Shown here: piece by piece, positions 1 through 8,603 of the stretch
Position numbering within the stretch: position 1 is the first letter of the stretch
Layout: every line of letters begins with the position of its first letter
NCBI GenBank assembly: GCA_964407265.1
Contig: CAYOUV010000011.1
Location: 800 to 64,799, forward strand
Reading direction: 5' to 3'
DNA length: 64,000 bases
DNA from: an uncultured Anaerolineaceae bacterium
Lineage (GTDB): Bacteria > Chloroflexota > Anaerolineae > Anaerolineales > Villigracilaceae
Notes under the pieces: model-generated
Told to the model about the DNA's origin: nothing
Database searches by the model: none
What the model saw: only the letters and a program-made list of their open reading frames with translations
Translations under genes and position numbers: made by a program

Positions 1-982
1 GATCAGGGAAGAAGGTCTGGTCGTAGATATCCTTGATCGCCTGAACAGCCCGACTGATCTGGTCGCTGTGGTCCGCATAGTAATCAGTTGCCTTGTAATT
101 CTTTTCGATCCCGTCGATGGCTTGCATGGCAGCGTCGCGCGTTTCATAGGTGGCATAAAGCACCTGCACCGCATTCTGGTGAATCCCGGGAATCTCTGGG
201 CTGATCAATCCGCGCGCCATGGCCTCGTCAATCGAAACTTCAGGTGGTTTGAAATTATGCGAGACCCGATTATGGCAGGTCGTGCATTCCATCTTTTTTA
301 ATTTGCTCTCGTCGATCGTGGCAGGGTCAATCCCGGATTCGACATCCACATATTCCGTGAATGTACCGTCATCATTCATAACGCGCACATACGGGATAAT
401 CTGGTTCTCGATATCATTCGAGTAGTAATAAACGGGATTGATAATATGCCAATGGATCCCACGCCCCAATCCTTCGACCTTGGCACCACCGCCAGTCTTC
501 AAGATCAGATATGTGGTCGTGGCTGTGTTGTTAATGTCGTTTGTGAAATGCGTGATGGTTTGCAGAGAATCACTTGAGAAGGTCTCCGGCAGGTGACATT
601 TTTCGCAAGTCAGAAGATCGGGTTTGGTGCGTGTGGCCCGAATTGGGAACTCATAGAGGTGGAAAACCATTGAGTAAAGCTCGTAAACGTCCTCGGATTT
701 TCGCGCCAGTTGCTGACCGACGAAAGCACGCCCAATGTGACACTCAGTGCAATATACGTTGGCATGTGGTGATATTTTGTAGGTTGCGTTTTGCGGCGGC
801 ATAGTGTGACAGGTTGTGCCGCAGAATTTGGGAGAGTTGGTATAGTCCCAGCCATAAGCCCCACCAACCAGTAGAAAGATGGTCAATATGCCCAGGATTG
901 TATAAGGCAATATATACATCCAACGTGGGGATCCTTGAGGTGGAAAAAAGAAGTTGCGAAGCCTTGTGCGCAGTTTGGTCAT
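1..982 (-). CDS. NapC/NirT-like membrane-anchored tetrahaem cytochrome c (3' end runs off the window)
   Basis: Open frame not in the ORF track; translated by hand. TAAGGAGGAG precedes the ATG at 982. MTKLRTRLRNFFFPPQGSPRWMYILPYTILGILTIFLLVGG (TM), then CGTTCH, CTECH, CEKCH, CTTCH. No stop before position 1. Confidence 0.75.
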   Translation of the reverse strand, partial: MTKLRTRLRNFFFPPQGSPRWMYILPYTILGILTIFLLVGGAYGWDYTNSPKFCGTTCHTMPPQNATYKISPHANVYCTECHIGRAFVGQQLARKSEDVYELYSMVFHLYEFPIRATRTKPDLLTCEKCHLPETFSSDSLQTITHFTNDINNTATTTYLILKTGGGAKVEGLGRGIHWHIINPVYYYSNDIENQIIPYVRVMNDDGTFTEYVDVESGIDPATIDESKLKKMECTTCHNRVSHNFKPPEVSIDEAMARGLISPEIPGIHQNAVQVLYATYETRDAAMQAIDGIEKNYKATDYYADHSDQISRAVQAIKDIYDQTFFPD

Positions 983-1000
983 GACGAGAGAGACTCCTCC

Positions 1001-3154
1001 TTAGTTTTCTGGAGCGCCAGCAGCGATCCAATCCAAGATAATTTGAATTTCAGCATCAGACAACTTGCCAGTTGGAGGCATCACGGCTCCCTGGGTACCC
1101 GTGATGCGCTGGGCCAAGATGCTATTGGTAATATCGCCAGCGATGACGACCGGTCCATTCTTGCCAGTGCTTGTGACGGCTTGATATGAGGTCGAATCCC
1201 AACCCCCAAATGATGTTTTTTGGTTATGGCAAACCTGGCACCGGGTCTGCAGGAGCGGCGCAACTTGTCCGGAGAAACTGACTGACGAAGCGACAGGCGC
1301 AGCCGGCGTGGCGCCTCCCAGAACGCGGAGATATTGGACCAGCAATTGGATTTGTTCGGCGGAGAGGTTTTCTCCCCAGGCCACCATCGGGGTGGCTGTA
1401 TGGCCATTGCTGATGGTGTCAAACAAGGCTTGATCGTCATATTTGTCCTGGAAATCCTGGGTGTTTAAAGCGGGGCCAACCCCGCCTTCTCCCTTGGCGC
1501 CATGGCAACTGGCGCAGGCGATCGCGTAAAGTTGCCCACCTGTCAGGCTGGGTATGGGCTCCGGTGTGGGGGCACTTCCCTCAGGAGTCGGTGGCGGGGT
1601 TTCAGTGGCGAAGGTTGGCGGCTCTTCCACGGGCGGGTTGGCTTCCCAACTGCGGAGGTATTCCACGACAGCGTCCAGTTGCTCATCACTAAATGGACCG
1701 CCGTTTGCATCACCAAAGGAGGGCATGCCCAGACTCGGTTGACCCTGCGAGATAATATTTCTCAGTGTAGCATCGTCACGGGTTTTCAGGAATTCCGCAG
1801 TGCTGATGGGCGGGATGATATCACCCGCACGGGCAGGGTTTGGACCACCCTCACCAAACTGACCATGACAGGCACTGCAGTTCTGGGCAAAGAGATTGGC
1901 ACCAATTCCAGTACCGCCGCCCTGGCTGGTTTCGTAAGTATATTTAACCAGTGCATCCAATTGTTCGGGCGTGAGAATATTGCCCCAGACGGGCATGGTG
2001 ATATGCGGACCACCGCTGCTGATGATCTTGACCGCGCTTTCTTTATCCGGCGCGGAGGGGACCTTGTCACCGTGACAGGCGGCACAGTGTTGGCCGAATA
2101 AAGCTGCCCCGCCTGATTCGGATTTTGGATCGACGACGTAGGCAGCCAGGGTGTTCAAATCGGCCTCGCTCAGGGTTCCCTTCCAAGCCGGCATGGACAA
2201 ATGCTGTCCGCCCTGCGAGATCAATGTGCGAAGTTCTTCTTCCGTGCCCGAAAAAGCCACACCCTGTCCATGACAGCCCGCGCAGTTGATTGCAAATAAG
2301 CGCTGTCCATCCGGTGCGGCCAGGAAGTTTAGTAAGGCATTCTGCCCGTCAGAAGTGAGCACCTGGCTCCAGTCGGGGATATCCAGCCCTTCATGGCTGG
2401 GGTAATTGGCGCCTTCTGTAAAGACACGTTGAAGTTCCAGCGGATTACCGATGGCCTGGACCATCTGCGTGTGGCAGGTTTCGCAATACTGGACGTAAAG
2501 GGCACTGCCATTGGGCGACAGGATAAAGCCGGCCAGTTGATCGATTTCGTCAGTGCTCAGGTCACCACCCCAGGCTGGCATGCCTTCATGCGTACCCGAG
2601 GCAATTACCTTGTGTAAATCTGTTCCGGGTGGAATATCGATACTGGGGCCGTGGCAATTGGCGCAATTCGCAGCATACAAAGCTGCCGCTTGATCCACAA
2701 CCACTTTTTCCTGCGGCGGGGGCGCTGCGGTCGCCGCCAGGATAGTCAGTACCCCAATCCCGGCAACAACGGCCAGGGCTGTCAAGGAAGCAAACGGACG
2801 GTTGCGGAAATGGCGTTTGGCACTCCTGTCAATAAATGGCAGGGCGAGCAAGAGTAGAATAAACAATCCAGGCAAGATCATGGCCCCGATTACTTCCAGG
2901 TTGCCGGGGAAATATTTAAGCAGCTGGAATAAGAATAGGAAATACCATTCGGGTCGCGGGGTGTAGCTGGTATCGTTGGGATTTGCCCGAGCTTCCACCG
3001 GCGCGCCGATGAAATACGCCAGGGCAACCAAAATCAGGAAAACCACCAGGGATACAACTACATCCTTGAAGATGATGTCCGGGAAAAAGGGCACGCCTTT
3101 TTCTTTGGCTTCCTTATAGCGCTGCAAGTAGGATTTTTTCTCTCGATCGTTCAT
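1001..3154 (-). CDS. Cytochrome bc-complex subunit IV (cytochrome b C-terminal half, PEWY) fused to seven c-type haem domains
   Basis: The N-terminus has 3 TM helices with RPEWYFLFLFQLLK (Qo-site PEWY). Seven CxxCH follow: CANCH, CETCH, CAGCH, CAACH, CSACH, CASCH, CQVCH. MPxW Met-ligand motifs recur. Confidence 0.85.
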   Translation of the reverse strand: MNDREKKSYLQRYKEAKEKGVPFFPDIIFKDVVVSLVVFLILVALAYFIGAPVEARANPNDTSYTPRPEWYFLFLFQLLKYFPGNLEVIGAMILPGLFILLLLALPFIDRSAKRHFRNRPFASLTALAVVAGIGVLTILAATAAPPPQEKVVVDQAAALYAANCANCHGPSIDIPPGTDLHKVIASGTHEGMPAWGGDLSTDEIDQLAGFILSPNGSALYVQYCETCHTQMVQAIGNPLELQRVFTEGANYPSHEGLDIPDWSQVLTSDGQNALLNFLAAPDGQRLFAINCAGCHGQGVAFSGTEEELRTLISQGGQHLSMPAWKGTLSEADLNTLAAYVVDPKSESGGAALFGQHCAACHGDKVPSAPDKESAVKIISSGGPHITMPVWGNILTPEQLDALVKYTYETSQGGGTGIGANLFAQNCSACHGQFGEGGPNPARAGDIIPPISTAEFLKTRDDATLRNIISQGQPSLGMPSFGDANGGPFSDEQLDAVVEYLRSWEANPPVEEPPTFATETPPPTPEGSAPTPEPIPSLTGGQLYAIACASCHGAKGEGGVGPALNTQDFQDKYDDQALFDTISNGHTATPMVAWGENLSAEQIQLLVQYLRVLGGATPAAPVASSVSFSGQVAPLLQTRCQVCHNQKTSFGGWDSTSYQAVTSTGKNGPVVIAGDITNSILAQRITGTQGAVMPPTGKLSDAEIQIILDWIAAGAPEN

Positions 3155-7570: not shown

Positions 7571-7595
7571 CGTTACGTAATCTTTGCCGGGTTGC

Positions 7596-8603
7596 TTACT
7601 TCAGCGCTTCCAAGGCTGCATCGAGCATAGCATTGGCATAGGTCGAGTTGTGCACACCCATGCTCTTGTCTTCCTCAACGAAGAGGTAGTTCCAGAGAGC
7701 AGCAGCTTGGGCTTCGGGATAGTCACCGACGACGATCGTGCCTGTATCATCGAGCAGACCCTTGGCTTGCAGGGCAGCCTTGACTTCTTCGAGTTTGCCC
7801 TCAACCTCAGTTTGTACGCCGTTGATGTCGAAGTCTGTGGCATCGGCATGGCAGGTCGTGCAGGTTGCAACGTTCGGGGTGAAGCTGTGATTGGCGTCTG
7901 CACCTGGGCCGCCCATGTGGCAGGTCACGCAGGTGTCTTCCACCATCGAGTAATGCGCACTGGGTTTGCCTTCCACGCCACCCGCGCCGTTAACGCCGAG
8001 CAACATCGCGTCCACAGGCCCGTGATGGCCACCCCAGTGGGTGCTCGTGACTTTGACCATGCCATCCGTCGCTGCCGGGAAGGCAGTTCGCGGCTGGTGG
8101 CAGTGAGCGCACAGGTTGCCCTGGCCGCCGTCGAAGCTCGCACCGTCGACTGCGATGAGCGCTACCGGGTCAGTGGATTCAAGAGCCCAGTCATCACCGG
8201 TGTAGCTGGTGTGGATCTGGTGGCAGGCACGGCAATCGATGCGGCTGGGGTTCACGAGCGCCGAATCTTGTGCGGCAGCATTGTCGACACCCGCGGCAAT
8301 CGCGGCGCTGAAGCCGCTGCCGGAGTGACAACCGGTGCAGGAGGCATTGGCACCCGCAATACTAAAAGCTGGTCCGCTCCCATGAAAGGACGTTTCCCAT
8401 GCCGCATCCTTACCGGTGAGCATCGAGGTGTCATTGTGGCACGTGGTGCAGGATAGATCAGCAGTTGTCATGGCTGGGCCGGCGGGGCCGGCGGGGCCTG
8501 CGGGGCCGGCGGGGCCAGCCGGGCCAACCGGACCAGCACATGCCGCCAAAACGACTGCGGCGACGAGCAATGTGCCAAATAGAGCTATTCTTTTGATAGA
8601 CAT
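7596..8603 (-). CDS. Hexahaem c-type cytochrome lipoprotein with a collagen-like (GPX)7 linker
   Basis: AAGGAG RBS then ATG at 8603. MSIKRIALFGTLLVAAVVLAAC lipobox, then GPVGPAGPAGPAGPAGPAGPA. CTTCH, CTGCH, CRACH, CAHCH, CVTCH, CTTCH. Confidence 0.85.
   Translation of the reverse strand: MSIKRIALFGTLLVAAVVLAACAGPVGPAGPAGPAGPAGPAGPAMTTADLSCTTCHNDTSMLTGKDAAWETSFHGSGPAFSIAGANASCTGCHSGSGFSAAIAAGVDNAAAQDSALVNPSRIDCRACHQIHTSYTGDDWALESTDPVALIAVDGASFDGGQGNLCAHCHQPRTAFPAATDGMVKVTSTHWGGHHGPVDAMLLGVNGAGGVEGKPSAHYSMVEDTCVTCHMGGPGADANHSFTPNVATCTTCHADATDFDINGVQTEVEGKLEEVKAALQAKGLLDDTGTIVVGDYPEAQAAALWNYLFVEEDKSMGVHNSTYANAMLDAALEALK
8472..8534 (-). repeat. Seven tandem 9-bp units encoding Gly-Pro-Val/Ala triplets
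   Basis: GGCCCNGCN reiterated, in frame within the hexahaem gene directly after the lipobox Cys codon (8538-8540). Confidence 0.9.

What the first reader, a model, noticed from the sequence alone, without database searches (positions are those of the whole stretch)
1..8603. Seven contiguous genes carrying 27 CxxCH sites and three different quinol-interacting modules, with no terminal reductase in the window
Seen directly, on the minus strand in order: a hexahaem lipoprotein (7596-8603); a nonahaem cytochrome c (6102-7262) coupled to an FdnI/HydC-type cytochrome b with one c-haem (4858-6102); then Rieske (3816-4301), cytochrome b6-type (3157-3816), PEWY subunit IV with 7 c-haems (1001-3154) and a NapC/NirT-like tetrahaem (1-982, truncated). 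Stop/start overlaps (TAATG) at 3816 and 6102 indicate translational coupling. No NrfA, HAO, NirS/K, Nos, Nar or haem-copper oxidase catalytic subunit occurs anywhere in the 64 kb. A dedicated two-component system and a full ccm operon lie directly next to the island. From established knowledge, Rieske/b, NapC/NirT and CbcL-type modules are each quinol dehydrogenases that feed periplasmic multihaem chains, for example in metal-reducing Proteobacteria. My inference is that this is a self-contained quinol-to-extracytoplasmic electron-export island (mineral, electrode or some unknown soluble acceptor). It sits in a Chloroflexota-like lineage where such pathways are not biochemically characterised.
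Basis: partly seen in the sequence, partly recalled or inferred. Interest (0 to 1): 0.8.

Follow-up and report, generated by a model that had tools for sequence, protein, structure and literature searches.

The report
Clustered quinol-to-multihaem-cytochrome hub in Anaerolineales
An uncultured Anaerolineales (Chloroflexota) bacterium packs four different membrane quinol/cytochrome modules and a stalked, lipid-anchored surface cytochrome into one regulated locus, which most likely moves respiratory electrons out of a single-membrane cell; this has not been shown, and the final acceptor cannot be read from the DNA.

Summary
Seven minus-strand genes sit at the stated coordinates. They carry 26 CxxCH motifs plus one CX3CH motif, against 3 CxxCH in the other 55 kb.

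Near-identical contigs extend the locus to the left. The NapC-like gene encodes a 565-aa protein with nine haem motifs. It is followed by a convergent fourth quinone module (octahaem, 4x[4Fe-4S] protein, NrfD) and a second two-component system. No terminal reductase follows.

In about 20 Anaerolineales MAG loci the modules stay clustered even where their order is shuffled. The flanks hold only more large multihaem lipoproteins, never an oxidase or an N/S reductase. In five loci retrieved through the NapC-like protein the Rieske/b6 module is absent, so it looks like an addition to a conserved core next to ccm.

The model of the hexahaem lipoprotein best matches OcwA and OmhA, the cell-surface terminal reductases of Gram-positive iron reducers. 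Every sampled homologue carries a collagen-like Gly-X-Y stalk directly after the lipid-anchored Cys.

Extracytoplasmic electron export is therefore the best reading (about 0.5). "Self-contained" is unproven: the window is a small part of the genome, most Anaerolineae MAGs encode oxidases, the suIV haems are class-I type, and direction of flow is unknown. I rate it a new variant of a known kind.

The parts
7596..8603 (-). A: hexahaem lipoprotein (335 aa). Lipobox LAAC (Cys22), then 7 Gly-X-Y triplets (collagen-like stalk), a six-haem domain and a C-terminal three-helix bundle. Candidate cell-surface electron-transfer terminus. It has its own ribosome-binding site and is separated from B by 333 bp.
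   Evidence: PF22113, the MtrC/MtrF II-IV domain, 35.6 bits against a cutoff of 30; MtrC E=5e-4; AF2 pLDDT 77; Foldseek: OcwA 6i5b E=3e-5, TMq 0.50; OmhA 6qvm E=1e-2; lipobox in 41/44 homologues, GXY run in 44/44.
6102..7262 (-). B: nonahaem c-type cytochrome (386 aa) with an N-terminal and a C-terminal membrane helix. It is the cytochrome c half of a split CbcL-like quinol module.
   Evidence: weak DmsE/GSU2203 decahaem hits; TM helices 16-34 and 352-370; TAATG overlap with C.
4858..6102 (-). C: FdnI/HydC-type dihaem cytochrome b (414 aa), followed by a Pro/Thr-rich linker and a C-terminal PSCyt1 monohaem c domain.
   Evidence: PF01292 56 bits; PF07635 37 bits; FdnI 54 bits, below the equivalog cutoff; >=4017 homologue clusters, many with 1-3 extra tethered monohaem domains.
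3816..4301 (-). D: Rieske [2Fe-2S] subunit with a TAT signal.
   Evidence: CTHLGC at 103, CPCH at 121, SRRNFM.
3157..3816 (-). E: cytochrome b6-type subunit. It has His86/100/187/202 and lacks the haem-ci cysteine (FYTLGS).
   Evidence: PF00033 169 bits; cytochrome b6 240 bits; ExtP 222 bits; both below cutoff.
1001..3154 (-). F: subunit IV (PEWY, 3 TM helices) fused to six class-I cytochrome c domains and a terminal PSCyt1 domain. Seven haems in total, with Pro-rich linkers.
   Evidence: The identical protein is found on 11 public contigs.
1..982 (-). G: NrfH/NapC-like quinol dehydrogenase, truncated by the window edge. The full length on near-identical contigs is 565 aa: 1 TM helix, CX3CH + 7 CxxCH + CX4CH, an inserted beta/alpha domain with no PDB match in a low-confidence model, and a C-terminal PSCyt1 domain.
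   Evidence: NrfH 2j7a_C E=2e-9; >=5903 clusters.
8800..11056 (+). HisKA_3 sensor kinase with a multi-TM N-terminus (8800-10392) and a GerE/NarL-type response regulator (10361-11056). They are divergent from A. A paralogous pair lies left of the window, beyond the NrfD operon.
   Evidence: The pair is conserved next to the island in L007, L008, L014, L018, L091, L092 and L090.
11240..19636 (+). System I cytochrome c maturation operon: ccmE, ccmF, a thioredoxin-like protein, a Zn-ribbon membrane protein, a 637-aa dihaem class-I cytochrome c lipoprotein, ccmA, ccmB and ccmC.
   Evidence: ccm adjoins the island in nearly all relatives.

Best explanation
The locus is a respiratory hub that couples the menaquinone pool of a (presumed) single-membrane Anaerolineales cell to membrane-tethered c-type cytochromes on the outer face of the membrane.

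Shown:
- Four different quinone-interacting modules are clustered: (i) Rieske / cytochrome b6 / suIV-heptahaem; (ii) an NrfH-like protein with nine haem motifs; (iii) a split CbcL-like pair, nonahaem plus FdnI-type cytochrome b; (iv) just left of the window, octahaem + 4x[4Fe-4S] protein + NrfD.
- Every redox protein has a predicted membrane anchor or is delivered to a membrane complex: a TM helix, a lipid anchor or integral-membrane topology, or, for the FeS subunit, a TAT signal.
- Modules i-iii each end in a PSCyt1 monohaem domain on a Pro/Thr-rich tether.
- A hexahaem lipoprotein sits on a collagen-like Gly-X-Y stalk.
- Two paralogous two-component systems and the ccm operon flank the cluster.

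Inferred:
- Quinol is oxidised by whichever module fits the redox potential of the acceptor, as with ImcH, CbcL and CbcBA in Geobacter.
- The tethered monohaem domains replace the soluble periplasmic carriers that a cell with no outer membrane could not retain.
- They pass electrons to stalked surface cytochromes. Here that is the OcwA-like hexahaem. In relatives it is an MtrC-like decahaem or a larger cytochrome.
- These surface cytochromes reach through the wall to an extracellular acceptor: Fe(III)/Mn(IV) minerals, humics, an electrode or a syntrophic partner.
- The Rieske/b6 module is a later, energy-conserving add-on for high-potential acceptors. It may also serve oxidases encoded elsewhere.
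For: - Anatomy and anchors.
- Fourth module and second two-component system left of the window, on contigs 99.9% identical to the window.
- The FeS subunit passes the NCBIfam DsrO cutoff (214 > 200). NrfD is most similar to QrcD.
- Clustering survives shuffling of gene order in relatives at 45-60% identity (L012, L017, L019, L029).
- A conserved core lies next to ccm in L087, L088, L091, L092 and L093.
- None of these flanks holds an oxidase or an N/S reductase. In the outgroup loci checked (mainly Acidobacteriota), five of five Rieske/cytochrome b loci sit beside COX1 at about 496-533 bits.
- The slot between the kinase and the nonahaem gene varies. It holds the hexahaem A, a 733-aa decahaem, a 721-aa decahaem, an 835-aa MtrC-like decahaem (PF22113 86 bits), or nothing. 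A 23-haem protein occurs elsewhere in one island. All of the lipoproteins carry a stalk directly after the lipid Cys: GXY, VEVEVP or PT-rich.
- The model of A best matches OcwA (E=3e-5, TMq 0.50), then OmhA. OcwA is the characterised surface terminal reductase of Thermincola (PMC6703420).
- A has 13 invariant His for 6 haems, enough for bis-His ligation throughout, and no CxxCK.
- Geobacter uses six inner-membrane quinol:cytochrome c oxidoreductases of the same kinds, including Cbc4 (MHC + 4x[4Fe-4S] + membrane subunit) (PMC6295460).
- MHC-rich Anaerolineales genomes came from a bioanode experiment and were already suspected of EET. They have no porin-cytochrome complexes (PMC7399161).
Against: - There are no expression, biochemical or physiological data for any component.
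- The window and the 10-kb flanks are a small fraction of the genome. Most Anaerolineae MAGs encode cytochrome c oxidases and many encode nitrite reductases, so the same modules could feed those enzymes.
- The suIV haems are class-I domains, mostly with the motif expected for His/Met ligation, typical of high-potential chains to oxidases.
- The OcwA match is structural only. A profile of the A family does not retrieve OcwA by sequence at E<=1. The model has pLDDT <50 over 28-66 and 129-132. A has 6 haems, not 9.
- OcwA-like folds belong to the NrfA superfamily, so catalysis on a soluble substrate is not excluded.
- A paralogue of A occurs alone in an unrelated context (L089).
- Some islands have no surface cytochrome in the slot (L087, L088, L093).
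- NrfD/FeS/MHC complexes of the Qrc type reduce quinone, so flow could run inward.
Confidence: 0.5

Rival explanations
1. General quinol:cytochrome c hub for conventional respiration. The modules, above all Rieske/b6/suIV-7c, are the organism's complex III equivalents. They hand electrons through tethered monohaem domains to terminal enzymes encoded elsewhere, such as caa3/cbb3 oxidases, NrfA, NirK or NosZ. The multihaem lipoproteins would be accessory carriers.
For: - Class-I cytochrome c domains with the MPxW methionine motif on suIV.
- 47 of 55 Anaerolineae MAGs have complex IV and 22 of 55 have a nitrite reductase (PMC11748557).
- cbb3, bd and nrfA are reported in Anaerolineae MAGs (PMC11650866).
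- The core lies in a syntenic, housekeeping-like position beside ccm and panB/panE and is very common (>=4000-5900 clusters at 90% identity).
- The H-I-J module resembles a minimal ACIII/Qrc core.
Against: - In about 20 loci no oxidase or reductase gene lies within 10 kb, whereas five of five outgroup Rieske loci (mainly Acidobacteriota) sit next to COX1.
- This reading does not explain stalked lipoproteins with 6-10 close-packed haems, or a 23-haem protein in the island.
- It does not explain why four parallel quinol modules are kept.
- The Rieske module, the one best suited to oxidases, is the dispensable one.
Confidence: 0.27
2. Inward electron flow. The island takes electrons from an extracellular donor (Fe(II), a cathode, a reduced humic or a syntrophic partner) and reduces menaquinone through the Qrc-like NrfD module or the CbcL-like module. 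The Rieske/b6 complex would run in reverse or route electrons to an oxidase.
For: - The NrfD and FeS subunits are most similar to QrcD, QrcC and DsrO, which belong to quinone-reducing or bidirectional complexes.
- CymA and CbcL/MtoC family proteins occur in both Fe(III) reducers and Fe(II) oxidisers, and EET is bidirectional (PMC6295460).
- The Chloroflexota isolate Ardenticatena performs anodic and cathodic EET (cited in PMC7399161).
Against: - No carbon-fixation or lithotrophy genes are linked to the island in any locus examined.
- One relative has the island next to an Hdr/Mvh-type NiFe hydrogenase, which is an electron source rather than a sink.
- Described Anaerolineales are organoheterotrophs (established knowledge).
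- Sequence alone cannot settle the direction of flow.
Confidence: 0.12
3. The hexahaem lipoprotein is itself a catalytic NrfA-superfamily reductase for a soluble substrate such as nitrite, hydroxylamine, sulfite or tetrathionate. In that case the island does contain its terminal enzyme.
For: - Foldseek ranks 4-26 are NrfA, octahaem nitrite reductases and MccA. The model has the C-terminal three-helix bundle of that superfamily.
- OcwA itself slowly reduces nitrite and hydroxylamine (PMC6703420).
Against: - There is no CxxCK motif.
- The 13 invariant His suffice for bis-His ligation of all six haems.
- The NrfA matches have rmsd 7-12 A and TMq <=0.39.
- A collagen-like stalk that moves the domain away from the membrane is not needed for a soluble substrate.
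- The slot is filled by unrelated MtrC-like decahaems in relatives.
Confidence: 0.06

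Closest known systems
Geobacter sulfurreducens inner-membrane quinol:cytochrome c oxidoreductases (ImcH, CbcL, CbcBA/Cbc5, Cbc3, Cbc4, Cbc6)
   Same: - Several parallel quinol-oxidising modules of different types feed multihaem carriers.
- CbcL has nine c-haems plus a HydC/FdnI-type cytochrome b, the same content as B+C.
- Cbc4 is an anchored MHC + 4x[4Fe-4S] protein + integral membrane subunit, the same plan as J-I-H.
- Cbc6/ExtOPQ includes b6-like and suIV-like subunits. The window b6 scores 222 bits on the ExtP model.

   Different: - Here the modules are clustered in one locus beside ccm and two-component systems. In Geobacter they are dispersed.
- The CbcL equivalent is split into two translationally coupled genes.
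- Each module ends in a tethered PSCyt1 monohaem domain.
- There are no soluble periplasmic cytochromes and no porin-cytochrome conduit.
- A true Rieske protein is present.
- Direct sequence comparison with GSU0274 or GSU3259 was not possible.
OcwA (Thermincola potens) and OmhA (Carboxydothermus ferrireducens), cell-surface terminal reductases of Gram-positive iron reducers
   Same: - They are the best and second-best structural matches to the model of A.
- A has a globular haem domain plus a C-terminal three-helix bundle (PMC6703420).
- The envelope is that of a single-membrane cell.
   Different: - A has 6 haems, against 9 and 11.
- It is lipid-anchored with a collagen-like Gly-X-Y stalk.
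- There is no detectable sequence-level match.
- All haems may be bis-His, whereas OcwA has two high-spin haems.
Cytochrome b6f / Firmicute-type bc complexes (split b6 + suIV, cytochrome c fused to suIV, as in Bacillus QcrC)
   Same: - Rieske protein with a TAT signal.
- b6 with His86/100/187/202 and the b6-type x14 spacing in helix D.
- suIV with PEWY.
- c-type cytochrome fused to suIV.

   Different: - Seven tandem monohaem domains instead of one or two.
- No haem-ci cysteine.
- The module is embedded among multihaem modules and is absent from many sister lineages.
NrfH/NapC/CymA quinol dehydrogenases
   Same: - N-terminal TM helix.
- First haems aligned to NrfH (2j7a_C, E=2e-9).
- The CH-x-M signature after the first motif.

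   Different: - 565 aa with 9 haem motifs.
- The first motif is CX3CH.
- A roughly 190-aa inserted beta/alpha domain with no PDB match in a low-confidence model.
- A C-terminal PSCyt1 domain.
- It scores below the NrfH equivalog cutoff (55.8 < 134).
Qrc / DsrMKJOP / NrfBCD / alternative complex III (NrfD-FeS-cytochrome c cores)
   Same: - TAT-exported four-cluster FeS protein.
- One NrfD membrane subunit.
- A membrane-anchored multihaem cytochrome.

   Different: - No molybdopterin-like subunit (QrcB/ActB1), no second NrfD (ActF), no DsrMK.
- An octahaem with both N- and C-terminal anchors.
- An extra conserved Cys-rich 108-aa membrane protein.

Membership tests
Rieske/cytochrome b (b6f-type) complex | Rieske CxHxGC...CxCH boxes and a TAT signal | tested here: met
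   CTHLGC at 103, CPCH at 121, SRRNFM; PF00355 37.8 bits.
Rieske/cytochrome b (b6f-type) complex | Four haem-b histidines in helices B and D; split b6 + suIV with PEWY | tested here: met
   His86/100 and His187/202; PEWY at residue 68 of suIV; PF00033 169 bits and PF00032 46.5 bits.
Rieske/cytochrome b (b6f-type) complex | Haem ci/cn cysteine (Cys35) of b6f and Firmicute complexes | tested here: not met
   The sequence is FYTLGS, with Thr in place of Cys.
NapC/NirT/NrfH | N-terminal TM helix plus a compact tetrahaem domain with four CxxCH | tested here: inconclusive
   PF03264 46.7 bits against a cutoff of 24.1; NrfH structure E=2e-9. But the first motif is CX3CH, the fourth haem is displaced by an insert of about 100 aa, and the NrfH equivalog score of 55.8 is below the cutoff of 134.
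CbcL (Geobacter GSU0274) | Nine CxxCH plus a HydC/FdnI-type dihaem b domain | tested here: met
   B has 9 CxxCH. C scores 56 bits on PF01292. The gene order c then b matches the domain order in CbcL (PMC6295460).
CbcL (Geobacter GSU0274) | Single fused polypeptide; sequence homology to GSU0274 | tested here: not met
   There are two genes with a TAATG overlap. Homology to GSU0274 could not be tested because no reference sequence was available. A 2018 survey found no CbcL homologue in Chloroflexi.
ImcH (Geobacter GSU3259) | Three N-terminal TM helices, seven CxxCH, a NapC-like segment | tested here: inconclusive
   G has one TM helix, 7 CxxCH plus 2 variant motifs, and a NapC-like segment. No ImcH sequence was available for comparison.
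Cbc4 / Qrc / NrfCD-type complex | Anchored MHC + 4x[4Fe-4S] protein + NrfD-type membrane subunit | tested here: met
   PF03916; Fer4_11 with a TAT signal and three or more CxxCxxCxxxC motifs; octahaem with anchors. DsrO 214 bits against a cutoff of 200. The architecture matches Cbc4.
Qrc / alternative complex III | Molybdopterin-like subunit (QrcB/ActB1); second NrfD subunit (ActF) | tested here: not met
   Neither is present in L001, L002 or the relatives. QrcD scores 208 bits against a cutoff of 570.
OcwA-type surface reductase | NrfA-superfamily haem domain plus a C-terminal three-helix bundle | tested here: inconclusive
   Foldseek 6i5b E=3e-5, probability 1.0, TMq 0.50, 23% identity. The model has helices at 260-280, 297-312 and 320-334. 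Parts of the model are low-confidence, and there is no sequence-level hit.
OcwA-type surface reductase | Nine haems including two five-coordinate ones | tested here: not met
   All 44 homologues have six CxxCH, and the invariant His suffice for bis-His ligation.
MtrC/OmcA decahaem family | Pentahaem domain II/IV (PF22113) in duplicate; ten haems | tested here: not met
   A has one weak domain hit (35.6 bits) and six haems. A relative's 835-aa decahaem in the same island does qualify at domain level (86 bits, two stretches).
NrfA (catalytic nitrite reductase) | CxxCK active-site haem | tested here: not met
   No CxxCK in any of the six complete genes, and none seen in the translation of the truncated NapC-like gene.

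The most novel reading that the evidence does not exclude
Anaerolineales, among the most abundant 'fermentative' bacteria of sediments, soils and digesters, may carry a lineage-wide, unrecognised extracellular-electron-transfer machine built for a single-membrane envelope. Its proposed parts are:
- a syntenic core of three or four quinol oxidoreductases;
- terminal haem domains on flexible tethers that replace soluble carriers;
- lipid-anchored multihaem cytochromes that are pushed through the wall on collagen-like (possibly trimeric) stalks.

If true, this would be the molecular basis for the long-suspected Fe(III), humic, electrode or interspecies electron transfer by this group. Marker-based surveys do not report it: one study of ferruginous sediments found no evidence of dissimilatory iron reduction in its Chloroflexota (Dehalococcoidia) MAGs.
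Probability: 0.35. Interest if true: 0.8.

Novelty: new variant of a known kind. Interest (0 to 1): 0.6.

Why it matters
Multihaem-rich Anaerolineales have been suspected of extracellular electron transfer for a decade, but no pathway has been defined. Surveys of CbcL and ImcH homologues found essentially none in Chloroflexi.

This locus gives a concrete gene set that is conserved and very common: more than 4000-5900 protein clusters at 90% identity for two of its components. It also gives three testable design features:
- tethered PSCyt1 domains on each quinol module;
- a split CbcL-like pair;
- collagen-stalked surface cytochromes.

If the pathway is functional, iron, manganese and humic cycling and syntrophy budgets that treat Anaerolineae as fermenters or aerobes would need revision. 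It would also offer parts for engineering electron export from single-membrane cells.

If instead the hub simply feeds oxidases, it is still an unusual, compact alternative to complex III.

Tried and rejected
- **AF2 model of the full-length NapC-like protein (alignment A2).** pLDDT 61 and pTM 0.37, with the haem regions below 50. Foldseek against the PDB gave nothing below E=0.2. The inserted domain (about 139-325) therefore stays unassigned.
- **Profile of the hexahaem family against PDB sequences.** It did not retrieve OcwA, only weak MtrC, NrfA and collagen-peptide hits.
- **Promoter and terminator scan of 1-9000.** The counts equal the shuffle expectation, so it is uninformative.
- **The 556-bp C-D spacer.** I tested whether it is a decayed remnant of the extra C-terminal haem domains seen in homologues. 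There is no tblastn similarity. It is conserved only in the closest relative (90.5%) and is about 75 bp in others. I treat it as a spacer or promoter region.
- **The apparent suIV-multihaem 'relatives' outside Chloroflexota (mainly Acidobacteriota).** They are composite hits to cox-linked dihaem c + Rieske + fused cytochrome b loci. I used them only as a contrast.
- **Alternative complex III and Qrc membership for the NrfD module.** Rejected because there is no molybdopterin-like subunit and no second NrfD.
- **NrfA-type catalysis by A.** Judged unlikely because there is no CxxCK and there are enough invariant His.
- **Rfam scan.** It found nothing in the island.
- **Literature searches for collagen-like stalks on multihaem cytochromes.** Nothing found.
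- **L022.** Labelled delta-proteobacterial, with frameshifted island fragments. I disregarded it as a probable mis-bin or chimera.

Full report
**1. Observation.**

ORF listing and translation confirm seven minus-strand genes at the stated coordinates. The table gives their haem motifs.

| Gene | Coordinates | Haem motifs |
|---|---|---|
| A | 7596-8603 | 6 CxxCH |
| B | 6102-7262 | 9 CxxCH |
| C | 4858-6102 | 1 CxxCH |
| D | 3816-4301 | 0 |
| E | 3157-3816 | 0 |
| F | 1001-3154 | 7 CxxCH |
| G | 1-982 (truncated) | 3 CxxCH + CGTTCH (CX3CH) |

The total is therefore 26 canonical motifs plus one variant. In six-frame translation the region holds 27 CxxCH, against 3 in the other 55.4 kb.

Pfam assigns the following domains:
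- C: Ni_hydr_CYTB + PSCyt1.
- D: Rieske.
- E: Cytochrome_B.
- F: Cytochrom_B_C, six Cytochrome_CBB3 repeats and PSCyt1.
- G: Cytochrom_NNT.

Sequence motifs agree with these assignments: Rieske boxes CTHLGC/CPCH with a TAT signal; b6 His86/100/187/202; PEWY in suIV. The haem-ci cysteine is absent.

A has the lipobox LAAC and a good ribosome-binding site before the ATG at 8603. The TAATG overlaps at 6102 and 3816 are real. Gaps of 333 bp (A-B) and 556 bp (C-D) argue for three transcription units: A, B-C and D-E-F-G.

Pfam scans of 30 more ORFs show ccm genes, housekeeping genes and regulators, and no oxidase or N/S reductase.

**2. What lies to the left.**

The 717-aa suIV protein occurs identically on 11 public contigs. 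L001 (JGI) and L002 (NCBI GCA_034430315.1) are 99.9% identical to the window and extend it.
- G is 565 aa. It has one TM helix, CX3CH + 7 CxxCH + CX4CH, and a C-terminal PSCyt1 domain.
- A convergent operon follows: a 37-aa peptide, a Cys-rich 108-aa membrane protein, an octahaem with N- and C-terminal anchors, a TAT-exported four-cluster FeS protein and an NrfD subunit.
- After that come a second HisKA_3/GerE pair, a Zn-ribbon membrane protein, and panE/panB.
- NCBIfam places the FeS protein above the DsrO cutoff and NrfD nearest QrcD.

There are thus four quinone modules, and no classical terminal reductase follows the NapC-like gene.

**3. Conservation.**

A scan of one genome per species returned about 24 Anaerolineales MAG loci at 45-96% identity.
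- Of about 15 loci with usable flanks, 12 carry at least three of the modules. This holds even where order and orientation are shuffled (L012, L017, L019, L029).
- Five further long contigs retrieved through G homologues (L087, L088, L091, L092, L093) share one layout: ccm | kinase-regulator | variable slot | nonahaem + cytochrome b561 (once or twice) | NapC-like | convergent NrfD-FeS-MHC | regulator-kinase | Zn-ribbon | panE-panB.
- None of these five has the Rieske module. The Rieske/b6/suIV block therefore looks like an insertion into a conserved core, found in the window's clade and in L090.
- No flank holds an oxidase or an N/S-oxide reductase. One (L087) adjoins an Hdr/Mvh-type NiFe hydrogenase. 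One distant locus (L024) pairs the Rieske block with a TAT molybdopterin enzyme.
- By contrast, the non-Chloroflexota hits examined (mainly Acidobacteriota) are cox-linked Rieske/cytochrome b loci, with COX1 at about 496-533 bits in five of five.

**4. The surface component.**

The A family has at least 1397 clusters at 90% identity, all unnamed. In 44 sampled members:
- all have six CxxCH;
- 41 have a lipobox at about Cys22-23;
- every one has 6-15 Gly-X-Y triplets (median 9) directly after the lipid-modified Cys, with X and Y variable and Gly periodic.

The AF2 model (pLDDT 77, pTM 0.73) has a haem domain and a C-terminal three-helix bundle. Foldseek gives the following:
- the best PDB match is OcwA (6i5b, E=3e-5, TMq 0.50);
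- the next is OmhA (6qvm);
- NrfA-type enzymes follow with poor superposition.

OcwA is the characterised cell-surface terminal reductase of Thermincola potens and has the same domain plan (PMC6703420). At sequence level only weak MtrC domain hits appear.

In relatives the same slot holds other stalked lipoproteins:
- an 835-aa MtrC-like decahaem with 16 GXY triplets;
- 721-aa decahaems with VEVEVP repeats;
- a 733-aa decahaem with a PT-rich linker.

One relative (L028) also encodes a 23-haem protein elsewhere in the island.

A variable, stalked, haem-dense terminal component is what would be expected of the part that contacts an extracellular substrate. This is inference.

**5. Mechanism.**

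Shown:
- Every redox protein has a predicted membrane anchor, or a TAT signal in the case of the FeS subunit.
- Modules i-iii end in homologous PSCyt1 domains behind Pro/Thr-rich linkers. Two of the three replace the MPP methionine with GHF/QHF.
- Homologues of C carry one to three such domains in tandem.

Inferred:
- In a cell without an outer membrane, soluble carriers would be lost. Tethered monohaem domains would do their job instead, passing electrons from whichever quinol module is active to the stalked surface cytochrome.
- The multiplicity of quinol modules parallels Geobacter, where ImcH, CbcL and CbcBA serve different acceptor potentials and Cbc4 has the MHC/FeS/membrane-subunit plan.
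- The Rieske/b6 module would add proton-motive yield with high-potential acceptors.
- Two paralogous kinases suggest separate control of the two halves of the island.

**6. Rivals.**

The main rival is a general quinol:cytochrome c hub that feeds oxidases or nitrite reductases encoded elsewhere.
- In its favour: the class-I suIV haems, and the frequency of complex IV and nrfA in Anaerolineae MAGs.
- Against it: the lack of any linkage to such genes, the stalked multihaem proteins, and the fact that the Rieske module is dispensable.

Inward electron flow cannot be excluded from sequence. Catalysis by A is unlikely, because it has no CxxCK and has 13 invariant His for six haems.

**7. Comparison and novelty.**

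All the parts belong to known superfamilies. The idea that MHC-rich Anaerolineales perform EET is already in the literature (PMC7399161).

Four things appear to be undescribed in the searched literature:
- the clustered four-module hub;
- the split CbcL-like pair in a phylum where a survey found none;
- the shared tethered PSCyt1 termini;
- the collagen-stalked, OcwA-like lipoprotein family.

I class it as a new variant of a known kind, with interest 0.6. Its interpretation is partly supported: export is the best reading, but 'self-contained' and 'no terminal reductase' rest on a window that covers a small fraction of the genome.

Noticed in passing
window 30486-30598 (-): SAM riboswitch (RF00162, 88.6 bits) directly upstream of the metK-like ORF at 29199-30419 (-).
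   Followed up: no
window 63754-64000 (+): The 5' end of a bacterial 16S rRNA gene (RF00177, model positions 1-240), cut by the window edge. It could place the organism if extended.
   Followed up: no
window 15575-17488 (+): A 637-aa lipoprotein with two class-I cytochrome c domains and about 400 aa of unassigned sequence, embedded inside the ccm operon between a Zn-ribbon protein and ccmA. The same arrangement is found in L088 (635 aa) and in a distant Anaerolineae locus, L056 (655 aa). Its role is unknown; it could be a maturation factor or a redox partner.
   Followed up: partly
window 19881-23768 (+): Directly after ccmC lie a 544-aa secreted protein with no Pfam match and a 669-aa membrane protein with two CCG domains and a 4Fe-4S dicluster (HdrD/DsrK-like). 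The latter could be a fifth, cytoplasm-facing quinone-linked module. It was not checked in relatives.
   Followed up: no
L002 12030-12478 (-), left of the window: A 108-aa membrane protein with six C-terminal cysteines (no Pfam match) and a 37-aa hydrophobic peptide precede the octahaem gene. Both are conserved in nearly all related islands. They may be unrecognised subunits of the NrfD complex.
   Followed up: partly
L002 7207-8904 (full-length G), residues ~139-325: A beta-sheet plus helical insert inside the NrfH-like cytochrome. This region is largely predicted with confidence (pLDDT mostly about 70-94, with dips). No PDB structural match was found for the model, which is low-confidence overall. 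The domain is highly conserved across >=5900 homologue clusters.
   Followed up: partly
L024 1908-8833: In a relative at 45% identity, the Rieske/b6/suIV-7c block lies next to a 941-aa TAT molybdopterin oxidoreductase and ferredoxin-like proteins instead of the multihaem modules. This is a different wiring of the same complex.
   Followed up: partly
L087 14792-21704: In GCA_047602145.1 the island, which lacks the Rieske module, is followed by HdrBC-like proteins, MvhD (FlpD) and a NiFe hydrogenase small and large subunit pair. This is a possible electron-input partner.
   Followed up: no
window 26165-26605 (+) and 51733-52161 (-): Two Fur-family regulators. One precedes a CbiMQO cobalt/nickel uptake operon. 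The other overlaps the start of a P-type ATPase gene (49367-51760).
   Followed up: no
window 4302-4857: The 556-bp spacer between cytochrome b561 and Rieske is conserved only in the closest relative (90.5%, lower than the coding regions). It is about 75 bp in L009 and L030. It shows no similarity to the extra haem domains of longer C homologues.
   Followed up: yes
window 34000-36000: The highest G+C in the window (0.60) coincides with a partial N6/N4 DNA methylase ORF (34085-35014, -) and several short, Arg-rich ORFs that look spurious. This may be a remnant of a mobile or restriction-modification element.
   Followed up: no
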